Below, in pieces: positions 920-31,807 of a DNA stretch of 64,000 bases; the stretch's first letter is position 1; every line of letters starts with the position of its first letter. The DNA is taken from contig OZ024741.1 of NCBI GenBank assembly GCA_964016885.1, positions 7,688,001 through 7,752,000 on the forward strand, read 5' to 3'. The DNA comes from Eledone cirrhosa (lineage: Eukaryota). The notes beneath the pieces are model-generated. The model was not told where the DNA came from, ran no database searches, and saw nothing but the letters and a program-made list of their open reading frames with translations. Both the position numbers and the translations under genes were made by a program.

Positions 920-1112
920 TAGGAAAATGTATGACCCCGACGGCAGAGCTCAAGCCGTTTCGACGGCTATTTCTGGACAGAAATAGCTGACGAAACGGCT
1001 TGAGTTCTGCCGTCCTGGTCATGCATTTTCCTATTACCCACTCTACTACCCTAAGCATTGTGTACTCTGGCGCATTATGGTCCATCTGGTTCCTTACCAC
1101 AACTCATTCGTT
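920..1112 (+). mobile_element. Fold-back element carrying the 3' half of a hammerhead (family A, copy 1)
   Basis: ~53-bp-arm hairpin followed by an ~80-bp tail. Right arm reads GAAA-cggc ttgagttct gccg-TC. Inserted in (TA)n, with homologous copies elsewhere in the window. Confidence 0.8.
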
Positions 1113-1291
1113 ATATATATATATATATATATATATATATATATATATATATATGACAAGTAAGTATGCTTTTAAACAGTGAGCAGGTTTGAAGTTAGAA
1201 AATAGAATAGCTTTCGCCGTATTTTGACTACAGAAATTTTAGTCTGATTTTGGGGTTTAGAACCCTCAGATAAATGGAAAAAGATGAGTAT

Positions 1292-1362
1292 TGGCGTACA
1301 TGGGAGTCGAACCTACATCTTTGGTTATCCATACCACTGTGCTACTATTACACCAACACAAC
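1292..1362 (-). pseudogene. Degenerate tRNA-like sequence (pseudo-tRNA or SINE head)
   Basis: Minus strand has an A-box-like TGGTGTAATAGTAGCAC and a B-box GGTTCGACTCC. The cloverleaf is imperfect, with mismatches in the acceptor, anticodon and T stems. Confidence 0.5.
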
Positions 1363-1377
1363 ATGTGTTGGTGTTCT

Positions 1378-1650
1378 CTTTCTTTCACTGCCCCCATCTC
1401 TCTCGCTCTCCTCACCTCTCTCTTTCACTGCCCCCGTCTCTCTCGCTCTCCTCACCTCTCTCTTACACTGCCCACGTCTCTCTCGCTCTCCCCATCTCTC
1501 TTTCACTGCCCCCGTCTCTCTCACTCTCCCCACCTCTCTCTTTCACTGCCCCCGTCTCACTCGCTCTCCCCATCTCTCTCTTTCACTGCCCCCGTCTCAC
1601 TCGCTCTCCCCACCTCTCTCTTTCACTGCCCCCGTCTCACTCACTCTCCT
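1378..1650. repeat. 40-bp CT-rich minisatellite, ~7 copies
   Basis: Unit tttcactgcccccgtctctctcgctctcctcacctctctc recurs at 1501, 1541, 1581 and 1621. Confidence 0.95.
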
Positions 1651-2065
1651 AAGTCTCACTTTTATGTACAAATGGGGGCCCACGTGCTGGTCACCCCGGG
1701 GTCCCAGCGGACAGAATAGAAATGGCGTTTTCCTGGAGGCTGACACCTGTGGATAATTAACGTGGTGCCGACGGTGGTGATTAGGGAAGTGGCCCTAGGG
1801 TCAAGAATACCAGAAGTCTCCACGGTGTGGTATATAATTCCTAGTATATATTTCCTCTGTACAGGGTAGGATTAAGTTCTTTTGAGTCCCTAAGTACTTA
1901 AAACATTACGGCGCTTGCAATGTATAACGTCTATAAAATATATTTTGGGGAAATGACAAATATATTTAACTTATATTTAATGGTGTCCTTCTTTCAATGT
2001 GTGTCATCAGCATGTAGTTATTTTATTCAATGCTGTGTCCTTCCTGCAGTTTCTTTTTCTGAATA

Positions 2066-2645
2066 GGTAGGTTTCAGTTTAATGTGGGGAGGTGGTTATA
2101 TGTTGTTATTTAATGTTACCTGTATGTGAGGTAGGTTTCTGTTTAATGTGGGGGAGGTGGTTATATGTTGTTATTTAATGTTACCTGTATGTGAGGAAGG
2201 TTTCTGTATAATATCGGGGAGGTGGTTATATGTTGTTATTTAATGTTACCTGTATGTGAGGTAGGTTTCTGTTTAATATCGGGGAGGTCGTTATATGTTG
2301 TGTTATTTAATGTTACCTGTATGTGAGGAAGGTTTCTGTTTAATGTCGGGGAGGTGGTTATATGTTGTTATTTAATGTTACCTGTATGTGAGGTAGGTTT
2401 CTGTTTAATATCGGGGAGGTGGTTATATGTTGTATTATTTAATGTTACCTGTATGTGAGGAAGGTTTCTGTTTAATATCGGGGAGGTGGTTATATGTTGT
2501 GTTATTTAATGTTACCTGTATGTGAGGAAGGTTTCTGTTTAATGTGGGGGAGGTGGTTATATGTTGTTATTTAATGTTACCTGTATGTGAGGAAGGTTTC
2601 TGTTTAATGTGGGGGAGGTGGTTATATGGTGTTATTTAATATTAC
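2066..2645. repeat. ~61-bp minisatellite, ~9 copies
   Basis: Unit aggtttctgtttaatgtgggggaggtggttatatgttgttatttaatgttacctgtatgtgagg. Confidence 0.95.
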
Positions 2646-29350: not shown

Positions 29351-30372
29351 AATAATGGGGTATTACTCCTACTATGATTGACTACGACCATGTCGACTAC
29401 GACCACTAACAACAACAACAACAACAACAACAACAACAACAACAACAACAACAACAACAACAACAACAACAACAACAACAACAACAACAATAAAAGTGAT
29501 GTTGATGGTGATGATTACTAGAAAATGCTATTTACATCATTTTTAAAAATAGCAAAACAATTGATGCTTTGGATAGGGTCAAATAGTAGTCGTTAGACAT
29601 GCTCAACCAACCGTGACGCCTAAACCAATCTACTTTAGCAATCCAGTGAAACTACACACCGATTGGTCGAAATACAGTTTGCAAGATTTAGCATTCTGTA
29701 GCCACTTTTCACTGTATATAAGGCACAAAATTTACCCATCTCATTACAGTTGAGAATTGCAAACTTGACTGTCACCACAGAATATGAACCTGAAGATTTA
29801 ATATAGCATTTAATATAGCATTTAATATTCTACCATACTATTTCATTCTAATACCATTATCAATTTTAAAGGATTGTAAATAAAACGAGTGAATCAGACA
29901 AAGTTGGCATTCCTTTTATTAATATAATCTTCTATACACAATCATACACACCCGTGTATATTTCTCTCTCTCTCTCTCTCTCTCTCTCTCTATATATATA
30001 TATATATATATATATATATATATATATATATTGGCAACATGACCCTCCCAAAGTATAACAATATATATATATATATATATATATATATATATATATATAT
30101 ATATATATATATATGTATATGTATATATATATATATATATATATATATATATATATATATATATATATGTATATATATGTATATATATATATATATATGT
30201 ATATATATGTATATATATATATATATATATATATATGTATATATATATATATATATATATATATATATATATATATATATATATATATATATATATATAT
30301 ATATATATATACATATATATATATATATGTATATATATATATATATATATATATATATATATATATATATAT

Positions 30373-30748
30373 ATTATGTCTCCTGCTGAGTTCGATACTC
30401 GAGATTTATCCTTAATAGGATATCTCAAAACGCGAACGAAACCCAGGGTAGGGACATAATCACGGTAGGATTGTACTCATTTCTTCTAACTTTAAATTTA
30501 CACCTAATTGTGTATGGTTGACGGTATATTTAGTCAGTTTCTACATGGTGTTGAAATGTTGGGTAAATATTCTGTTGTGGTCGGCCGCGAAGAGGCTGCT
30601 GTAGTTTATTTATCAAATATTTCTTCATAGGAGCCTTTATTCTTATAGCCTGGTCTAATTGATTTTTTTATGTGGTTAATTATGCTAATTGGGAGAGGAA
30701 ATAGTGTATATATTTTATCAAATGATTCTATGGACATAATTTATGATA
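30373..30748 (+). mobile_element. Diverged relative of the 18090 HHR element (HHR-like at 30373-30460)
   Basis: Shares ggttaattatgctaattgggagaggaaat with the reverse complement of 18.2 kb. HHR reads attatgtctc-CTGCTGA-gttcg...cgaac-GAAA-cccaggg-TA-gggacataat, with one core substitution. Confidence 0.75.
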
Positions 30749-30898
30749 TATATATATATATATATATATATATATATATATATATATATACATATATATA
30801 TATATACATATAACGTGGAGTTACTGTAGGTTAACCCGGGTGAGCACTCGATGTTTAGGTTGACTTCAGTGTCGAGGTGTAGAGCTAGACAGAGTGTA

Positions 30899-31443
30899 TT
30901 ATAGTGAAATAAGATAACAAGGACGATTGGTTACTCCTTCATTACGTTTATTTGTTGGTGACTCGCGTTTCGCCACTGGTCAGCTCAAGGTTCGATCTGT
31001 ATCGATCTGACTCGACTCTGTAATCCGCGGCTCGTCAAACCCCTTGTAATGTTAATAGAAAAATGAATACATACTGTATGATAAAGTGAGAAGTTCCTAC
31101 CAACAACCAGCACCCCCAAACCACCGCCAACTTCAACCTGCGACCGACACCACCAACCTATGACCCCCCCCCCCTTATACACTACAGGCAAAAACATCCC
31201 TATGAACTAATCCACCAATCAAAACAAACTTCACTGATCACCATAGGAACTTCTGACTTTATCATACAGCATGTATTCATTTCCCCATTACCATTACAAG
31301 GAGTCTGACGAGCTGTGGATTACAGAGTCGGGTTAGATCGATACAGATCGAACCTTGAGCTGATCAGTGGTGAAACGCGCGTCACCAACTAATAAACGTA
31401 ATGAAAGAGTAATCAATCGTCCTTGTTAATTTATTTCACTATA
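30899..31443. mobile_element. Palindromic element with two divergent HHR motifs
   Basis: Arms 30899-31099 and 31244-31443. Right arm has CTGACGA-gctgt...gtggt-GAAA-cgcgcg-TC-acc (31301-31386, +). The left copy (30957-31041, -) has TTGACGA. Confidence 0.8.
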
Positions 31444-31451
31444 TATATATA

Positions 31452-31807
31452 TAGGAAAATGTTTAACCCCGACGGCAGAGCTCAAGCCGTTTCGATAGCT
31501 ATTTCTCGACTACTACCCTAAGTATTGAGTACTCTGGTGCGTTATGGTCCACCCGATTCCTTACCACACCTCCTTCGTTATATATATATATATATATATA
31601 TATATATATATATATATATATATATATATAGGAACCAGTAAGACCCCGACAGCTGAGCTCAAGCCGTTTCGACGGCTAATTCGTCGAAACGGCTTGAGCT
31701 CAGCTGTCGGGGTCTTACTGGTTCCTATTACCCACTCTACTACCCCAAGTATTGAGTACTTTGGTGCGTTATGGTCCACCTGGTTCCTTACCACATTTCC
31801 TTCGTTA
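31452..31807 (+). mobile_element. Two family A fold-back elements (31452-31580 internally deleted; 31630-31807)
   Basis: Homologous to 920-1112 and separated by (TA)n. Confidence 0.85.

What the first reader, a model, noticed from the sequence alone, without database searches (positions are those of the whole stretch)
920..31807. Snap-back hairpin family built on a half hammerhead, with arms that co-vary copy by copy
Seen: five copies (920, 17568, 23690, 31452, 31630) belong to one family. The intact ones keep GAAA-stem III-GUC but lack CUGANGA, which is replaced by an inverted copy of the 3' half, with the apex where the stem II loop would be. In each complete copy the two arms match each other more than they match other copies: ggaaaatgtatgacc/ggtcatgcattttcc, ggagtaagtaagacc/ggtcttacttactcc and ggaaccagtaagacc/ggtcttactggttcc. 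The full-length left arms all stop at the same TA. Inference: the hairpin is rebuilt at each insertion, with cDNA folding back on the ribozyme's stem II and self-priming. Stem II would then double as a second-strand primer.
Basis: partly seen in the sequence, partly recalled or inferred. Interest (0 to 1): 0.75.

Follow-up and report, generated by a model that had tools for sequence, protein, structure and literature searches.

The report
Head-to-head stubs of a Penelope retrotransposon
These hairpins are very abundant stubs of a Penelope-type jumping gene, likely made when two short DNA copies of the start of its RNA are joined head to head in a TA repeat; they keep half of a predicted self-cutting RNA motif, likely because the element's own promoter starts inside that motif.

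Summary
The five copies are real, and the family has at least 32,000 copies in this 3-Gb genome. The parent is an autonomous Hydra-type Penelope-like element (PLE). Its terminal repeat folds as a complete type I hammerhead with a U3-A8 core (UUGANAA), so a search for CTGANGA misses it. The hairpin apex does fall in loop II, and hairpins are rebuilt at each insertion: 94 of 108 junctions differ. Snap-back on stem II is not supported. No arm end (0 of 216) lies where it predicts, and the tail-less arm reaches further than the tail arm in 34 of 108 copies (29 the reverse). Best reading: two cDNAs, primed at +59 and +138 on opposite strands of (TA)n, run to a likely transcription start inside loop II and are end-joined. 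Arms co-vary by subfamily, not copy by copy. The inverted-repeat-plus-tail layout and U3-A8 are published, and this scan has noted the same kind on other DNA. What is added is the promoter nested in the ribozyme and copy-level evidence against self-priming. No RNA data; ribozyme activity untested.

The parts
920..978 (-). Copy 920: tail-less arm (element sense on the - strand), RNA coordinates +60 to +2, outer end at TA
978..1033 (+). Copy 920: sense arm +5..+60 with the 3' half of the hammerhead (GAAA 992-995, GTC 1012-1014; stem I strand mutated); 1-nt overlap at the junction
1034..1113 (+). Copy 920: one-sided tail (+61..+138) ending in (TA)n
17569..17588 (-). Copy 17568: 20-nt remnant of the opposite arm (+16..-4); the rest is missing at a (TA)n run
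17587..17650 (+). Copy 17568: tail-less arm -4..+60; putative transcription start A(+1) at 17591
23689..23742 (-). Copy 23690: tail-less arm +60..+7
23739..23802 (+). Copy 23690: sense arm -4..+60, A(+1) at 23743, ATTC microhomology; matches parent L039
23803..23882 (+). Copy 23690: tail
31452..31512 (-). Copy 31452: tail-less arm +60..-1
31510..31580 (+). Copy 31452: tail only (+70..+138), joined through a 3-nt microhomology; no right arm that could have templated the left arm
31629..31682 (-). Copy 31630: tail-less arm +60..+7
31682..31727 (+). Copy 31630: sense arm +15..+60, 1-nt overlap at the junction; youngest subfamily, parent L241
31728..31807 (+). Copy 31630: tail ending in (TA)n

Best explanation
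The hairpins are short head-to-head insertions of a Hydra-type Penelope-like retrotransposon, likely formed when its enzyme cuts both strands of a (TA)n repeat, primes two separate cDNAs on the start of its own RNA, and the two cDNA ends are then joined. Shown: the arms and tail are the parent's +1..+60 and +1..+138; both outer ends fall on a TA/TAT shared with the target; nearly every insertion has one tail end and one tail-less end; the two arms end independently; the ends pile up at -8..+8 with a peak at +1/+2. Inferred: +59 and +138 are the two RT start sites; +1 is a Pol II start (TATA-like at -30, YAGT initiator-like) lying in loop II of a U3-A8 hammerhead. The normal mRNA would then carry only the 3' half of the ribozyme and could not cut itself, and copying it from these internal sites gives promoter-less, dead 190-bp stubs. 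Rarer read-through RNAs would give the long arms that carry the whole ribozyme. Both cDNAs likely come from one RNA, or one source locus, held by an enzyme dimer. The ends are likely joined by microhomology-mediated end joining.
For: Parent: L091 pLTR-ORF-pLTR+tail. The intact 718-aa ORF in L241 has RWR, DKT, YRDD, CxCX5C, a C-terminal GIY-YIG, CxxC and CxH, the Hydra features listed in PMC8557442 sect. 11. Many 784-aa open frames occur, some in tandem or head to head. One-tail rule: 108 of 143 tail-bearing entries face a tail-less arm, and 2 loci have two tails. Of 101 tail-less arms, 82 face a tail, 7 are long arms and 11 have no partner; the 1 scored as tail-less on both sides has a mutated tail. 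7 of 7 long insertions with both outer ends in view follow the same rule. Independent arms: left further 34, right further 29, within 4 nt 45; 94 distinct junctions. 13 of 14 junctions differ even in the youngest subfamily. One recurrent junction occurs in both mirror forms, 11 vs 4 of 15 loci, two of the 11 being one duplicated copy. Ends: 155 of 216 at -8..+8; 26 of 94 filler-separated ends at +1/+2. Same source: arms share a haplotype in 92 of 96 copies, and 8 of the 9 common haplotypes occur in promoter-bearing parents. Multi-site chimeras L069, L186 and L207 show that two templates are sometimes used. In vitro, a PLE nicks and extends both strands, starts at two internal sites that bound the tail, and is predicted to be a dimer (PMC11167929). 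TATA plus Inr motifs in a pLTR: PMC3846280.
Against: The cap-type extra C after +1 is weak: 17 C vs 6 T (p=0.017), but C is not above 25% of all 75 cases. Many ends run to -1..-8, through a U-rich stretch and a second small hairpin inside loop II, so RT pausing could also make the pile-up. Ribozyme: no compensatory double change, and the pairing score is not above shuffles. Only 9 of 27 single-sequence folds show all three helices, 5 of 27 lack U3, and Rfam gives no hammerhead hit. The in vitro PLE showed no difference in start site between strands, so the one-tail coupling is not explained by that work. PMC8557442 attributes the tail to endonuclease resolution instead. Fast central deletion of palindromes (recalled) could blur junctions. 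The sample is 140 loci from the first 22 Mb of one contig, picked by exact words; one of the 108 pairs (L199) is a mis-pairing of neighbours. No Pfam hit for the ORF, and no tree against published Hydra proteins was built.
Confidence: 0.68

Rival explanations
1. Same PLE origin and two cDNAs, but the stop near +1 is reverse transcriptase falling off a longer read-through RNA at the U-rich, hairpin-forming loop II, not a transcription start.
For: Ends spread from -8 to +8. A distal hairpin and a U-run lie at -2..-20. A/T-run fillers occur at several junctions. The cap signal is weak.
Against: The sharp peak at +1/+2 (26 of 94) falls on a YAGT with a TATA-like box 29-31 nt upstream in the parents. 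Arms that pass about -20 run on for hundreds to thousands of bases. The ORF start lies at +235, downstream.
Confidence: 0.15
2. One reading: one cDNA folds back (on stem II or a small hairpin near +1) and self-primes, the endonuclease resolves the second strand at +59, and later central deletions vary the apex.
For: Arms share a haplotype in 92 of 96 copies. Exactly one tail is expected. Junctions such as that of copy 23690 fit a fold-back on a 4-bp stem. Self-priming is proposed in PMC3846280 and resolution-made tails in PMC8557442.
Against: 0 of 216 ends at the stem II 5' strand. The tail-less arm is longer in 34 of 108 copies and has no template in the tail arm in 12. Asymmetry does not rise with age (p=0.63). 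12 junctions hold both arms complete to +2 or beyond with no overlap. Zero-loop palindromic junctions and mirror forms occur, as do chimeric arms.
Confidence: 0.12
3. A MITE- or SINE-like hairpin amplified as a 190-bp unit.
For: Dozens of 98-99% identical full-length copies with the same apex exist.
Against: That set was ranked by likeness to the query. Tail-anchored and position-ordered samples show varied apices. No left/right difference is shared by more than 2 copies in any subfamily, and left arms are as close to other right arms as to other left arms in 40 of 46 copies. The stubs lack the parent's TATA-like box.
Confidence: 0.03
4. Arms are kept alike after insertion by gene conversion or hairpin repair.
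For: 4 rare alleles are mirrored.
Against: 96 of 100 rare alleles are one-armed, and arm-arm distance grows from 0.12 to 2.4 per 46 nt across subfamilies.
Confidence: 0.02

Closest known systems
Hydra clade of C-terminal EN+ Penelope-like elements (Craig et al. 2021, PMC8557442), e.g. Hydra-1_Obim, Penelope-13_HM
   Same: RW[K/R], DKT, CxCX5C linker, C-terminal GIY-YIG, CxxC/CxH; (TA)n target; hammerhead near the 3' end; inverted 5'-truncated copy with a tail on one end.
   Different: All listed Hydra hammerheads have C3-G8 and a loop II of 3-10 nt. This one has U3-A8, a ~37-nt loop II holding the putative promoter, and a 5-6-bp helix III. The unit is 3.1-3.6 kb (published: generally <3 kb) and the tail about 78 nt (published for PLEs: 30-40). 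The hammerhead sequence differs from that of Hydra-1_Obim.
Adineta vaga Penelope inverted pLTR + tail with junction palindromes (Arkhipova et al. 2013, PMC3846280)
   Same: Head-to-head arrangement, optional tail on one pLTR, TATA + Inr in the pLTR, palindromes at the junction.
   Different: That paper reads the palindromes as self-priming on an antisense template; copy-level counts here favour two sense-templated cDNAs.
Poseidon_Ac in vitro system (Frangieh et al. 2024, PMC11167929)
   Same: AT-rich target cut and extended on both strands; two internal RT start sites bounding the tail; ribozyme cleavage not needed.
   Different: No strand bias in start site in vitro, whereas genomic copies here pair one distal with one proximal start almost without exception. 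There the ORF begins in stem II; here the putative transcription start lies in loop II.
U3-A8 PLE hammerheads of Schistosoma Cercyon (Cervera and de la Pena 2014, PMC4209133)
   Same: U3-A8 core covariation, long helix II, short helix I.
   Different: Those are minimal motifs predicted to work as dimers; this one has a full helix III and a very long loop II.
Non-LTR retrozymes (bioRxiv 10.64898/2026.07.22.740005)
   Same: Short non-coding PLE derivatives with type I hammerhead sequence.
   Different: Retrozymes are tandem units each with a complete ribozyme; these stubs are inverted, hold half a ribozyme and show no sign of copying themselves.

Membership tests
Hydra-clade PLE (parent) | Single ORF, RT plus C-terminal GIY-YIG endonuclease | tested here: met
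   718-aa open frame with YRDD and VIY..YIG; identified by motif, no Pfam hit
Hydra-clade PLE (parent) | RWK motif, DKG changed to DKT, CxCX5C linker, CxxC and CxH near the C-terminus | tested here: met
   RWR (K to R), DKT, CNCPDRSIC, CNLC, CKH against the list
Hydra-clade PLE (parent) | Insertion into (TA)n | tested here: met
Hydra-clade PLE (parent) | Canonical hammerhead in the pLTR | tested here: inconclusive
   A motif is present at the expected place but in U3-A8 form with a long loop II; no CTGANGA
Hydra-clade PLE (parent) | Groups with Hydra elements in an RT tree | not tested
   Published Hydra proteins were not available as session sequences
PLE insertion unit (stubs) | Inverted 5'-truncated copy head to head, tail at one end only | tested here: met
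Type I hammerhead (parent pLTR) | Three helices around core positions 3-9, GAAA and UH | tested here: met
   The unconstrained consensus fold gives the three-helix junction; U4 G5 A6 A8 A9 invariant and N7 = G/A/T/C in 27 sequences; U3 in 22 of 27
Type I hammerhead (parent pLTR) | Covariation support | tested here: not met
   0 double changes; score not above shuffles; the sequences are closely related, so power is low
Type I hammerhead (parent pLTR) | Self-cleavage | not testable with these tools
   Only 7 of 216 arm ends at +41..+43, several explained by microhomology
MITE / unit-amplified SINE | Copies inherit junction and arm asymmetries from a master | tested here: not met
Non-LTR retrozyme | Tandem units each with a complete hammerhead | tested here: not met
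   The stubs are inverted and lack the 5' half

The most novel reading that the evidence does not exclude
This PLE hides its promoter inside loop II of its own hammerhead, so the coding mRNA is born with half a ribozyme and cannot cut itself while read-through RNA can. An enzyme dimer grips one RNA at two fixed sites and copies it twice onto both strands of a TA break. The tens of thousands of stubs are then an in vivo record of the PLE insertion reaction, and they settle the self-priming question against fold-back.
Probability: 0.4. Interest if true: 0.62.

Novelty: new variant of a known kind. Interest (0 to 1): 0.42.

Why it matters
How PLEs make their tandem and inverted insertions is an acknowledged open question (PMC8557442), with self-priming as one published proposal (PMC3846280). 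This family gives a large natural sample in which each model makes countable predictions, and the counts favour two independently primed cDNAs with a one-tail rule. A promoter nested in the ribozyme would also offer a simple role for PLE hammerheads: cutting read-through RNA but not mRNA. The layout itself is known and the stubs are probably dead, which caps the interest.

Tried and rejected
Rfam: no hammerhead hit on the window or on parent L039. Search for CTGANGA in the parent unit: none; the upstream 'CTGATTT' of the youngest subfamily is not conserved and is not the core. Pfam on ORF pieces and on the intact ORF: no hit. The homolog search gave 2218 unnamed relatives, the best 120 at 38-54% identity; not informative on clade. 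RNA runs: no RNA holder listed, so no reads were laid. A cap-derived C looked strong in a first small count (5 of 6) but weakened in the fuller count. A pile-up at the ribozyme cut site is minor (7 of 216). The expected chimera rate under random pairing of templates (18% same vs 31 of 33 seen) is overstated, because subfamilies differ in age. The age proxy is inflated by indels in a few rows. The sequence look-up in earlier scan notes found nothing.
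Full report
Observation. The five copies lie where stated, each between (TA)n runs, and they align with each other. Three are long hairpins followed by an unpaired tail of about 78 nt. Copy 17568 is a tail-less arm with a 20-nt remnant of its partner; copy 31452 is a left arm joined straight to the tail. 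The genome (3.0 Gb) holds 32,054 exact copies of a tail 25-mer and 54,367 of an arm 22-mer, with 0 for the reversed controls. The host was not identified; earlier scan notes on similar elements in other genomes name octopus.

The parent. A search with the tail alone returned 4 of 30 loci that continue upstream instead of folding back. Two of them are the ends of one 3.58-kb element with an ORF between. A natural intact copy (L241, unit 3118 bp) has a 718-aa ORF from +235 with RWR, DKT, YRDD, CxCX5C, a C-terminal GIY-YIG, CxxC and CxH. These match the Hydra-clade features in PMC8557442 section 11. Many 784-aa open frames occur, in tandem arrays and head-to-head pairs. Pfam does not recognise the protein, and no tree was built.

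The ribozyme. I number from the A of the YAGT at the apex (+1). 27 upstream-bearing copies picked by BLAST, and a near-identical set of 27 picked by motif, read CCCC-UUGANAA-G..CGGCUAU, then a ~37-nt loop, then UAGCCG-UC-GAAAC-GGC..GCC-GUC(+41)-GGGG. RNAalifold returns the three-helix junction without constraints. U4, G5, A6, A8 and A9 are invariant, position 7 takes all four bases, and U3 is present in 22 of 27. U3-A8 is a published PLE variant (PMC4209133). The 5' half occurs 7,660 times exactly. Against it: no compensatory changes, all three helices in only 9 of 27 single folds, and no Rfam hit.

How the arms co-vary. In 128 complete ungapped hairpins (46 from the position-ordered sample), subfamily alleles are mirrored, e.g. 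46 both, 2 left only, 0 right only. Rare alleles are one-armed in 96 of 100 cases. Own arms differ by 1.39 of 47 nt, against 4.0 for other copies' arms. The own arm is strictly closest in only 2 of 46; other left and other right arms are equally close in 40 of 46; no asymmetry is shared by more than 2 copies in a subfamily. 8 of the 9 common arm haplotypes exist in promoter-bearing parents. Both arms are therefore copied from the same source at insertion and then decay separately. Unit amplification and ongoing conversion are both rejected.

Junctions. I parsed 143 tail-bearing entries from 140 loci on the first 22 Mb of contig C1, chosen by exact words. 108 face a tail-less inverted arm (one, L199, is a mis-pairing), 12 are long arms, 19 show no partner (2 of these carry the promoter and some have a decayed partner), and 4 entries are 2 two-tail loci. 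Of 101 tail-less arms, 82 face a tail and none truly faces another tail-less arm. All 7 long insertions with both outer ends in view also have one end of each kind. 94 of 108 junctions are distinct. The tail-less arm reaches >4 nt further in 34, the tail arm in 29, and in 12 the tail arm starts at or beyond +58. 155 of 216 ends lie at -8..+8, none at -45..-25 and 7 at +41..+43; 26 of 94 filler-separated ends are at +1/+2. Asymmetry does not rise with age (p=0.63), and 13 of 14 junctions differ in the youngest subfamily. One recurrent junction appears in both mirror forms, 11 vs 4. Three loci have arms from different subfamilies at several sites. Joints show 1-10 nt microhomology or short, partly templated fillers; this resembles polymerase-theta end joining (recalled, not tested).

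Mechanism. Shown: two fixed outer ends at TA/TAT matching the target, one of each per insertion, independent inner ends, and a boundary near +1. Inferred from PMC11167929, where a purified PLE extends both target strands and starts at two internal sites that bound the tail: +59 and +138 are RT start sites. Also inferred: +1 is a Pol II start (TATA-like 29-31 nt upstream, YAGT; compare PMC3846280), so the mRNA holds only the ribozyme's 3' half, and copying its first 60 and 138 nt gives the stubs. The cap evidence is weak (17 C vs 6 T, not above 25% overall), and RT pausing in the U-rich, structured loop remains possible. No RNA holder was listed. Snap-back on stem II fails its own predictions. 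A milder fold-back followed by resolution and deletion is not excluded (0.12).

Comparison and novelty. The inverted copy with a one-sided tail, the (TA)n target, the pLTR promoter motifs, U3-A8 and the self-priming idea are all in print. Earlier notes of this scan report the same kind, including a nine-in-ten one-tail count (unchecked notes, read after my own analysis). Six paper searches did not turn up a transcription start inside a PLE hammerhead or copy-level tests of self-priming; older Penelope papers (Schostak 2008, Arkhipova 2006, Pyatkov 2004) were not read. In the plant retrozyme NbRZ1 the start lies upstream of the ribozyme cut and the transcript is cleaved (PMC12029980), unlike the arrangement proposed here.

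What I saw of each paper. PMC8557442: passages, section 11, supplement part 2 and two supplement searches. PMC11167929: parts 1-2 of 4. PMC4209133: parts 1-2 of 4. PMC3846280: passages. bioRxiv 10.64898/2026.07.22.740005: part 1 of 5. PMC13282606: part 1 of 3. PMC12029980: abstract and section 2.1. Unread supplements, such as curated octopus repeat libraries, may already list this family.

Verdict. A real, very abundant by-product of a known kind of element, with a useful mechanistic record and one unusual feature. Novelty: new variant of a known kind; interest 0.42.

Noticed in passing
window 30900-31099 / 31244-31443: Another head-to-head pair (200 nt, 90% complementary) with a CTGACGA...GAAACGCGCGTC hammerhead-like motif at 31305; probably a different PLE family, lying directly beside copy 31452.
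   Followed up: partly
window 19140-19435: Head-to-head pair with CTGATGA...GAAA motifs on both strands (19211 minus, 19364 plus).
   Followed up: partly
window 19904-20234 / 23080-23410, and 24307: 331-nt inverted pair 2.8 kb apart, with a compact motif resembling published Hydra hammerheads (CTGAYGAT-4 bp stem-TGAA) at 19940 and 23374; a third copy at 24307.
   Followed up: no
window 190-812: Nested inverted repeats with a perfect 126-bp palindrome at 535-660 and a CTGATGA motif at 486; likely stacked PLE ends.
   Followed up: partly
window 41580-64000: More than 22 kb of a 49/51-bp tandem satellite with extreme G skew (about 0.9).
   Followed up: no
window 1292-1362 (-): tRNA-like Rfam hit just above the gathering score (30.3 vs 29 bits), possibly a SINE head.
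   Followed up: no
L207, L122: The only two-tail loci; in L207 the two arms carry different subfamily haplotypes.
   Followed up: partly
L125, L128, L205, L220, L058: Runs of 7-19 A or T between arm ends near +1, suggesting untemplated or slipped synthesis.
   Followed up: no
alignment A1, columns 55-80: Loop II holds a second small hairpin that re-forms with different sequence in different subfamilies.
   Followed up: partly
G000 C1:91475388-91486806, C2:51277700-51285547, C2:320550371-320558250: Tandem arrays of ORF-bearing units at about 3.54-kb spacing; possible sources of read-through RNA.
   Followed up: no
L116, L208, L210 subfamily: The core reads C3 opposite A8, a mismatch that would likely impair the ribozyme, yet the subfamily amplified.
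   Followed up: no
L241, RNA +105..+146: A short upstream ORF (13 codons) overlaps the tail end and precedes the main start at +235.
   Followed up: no
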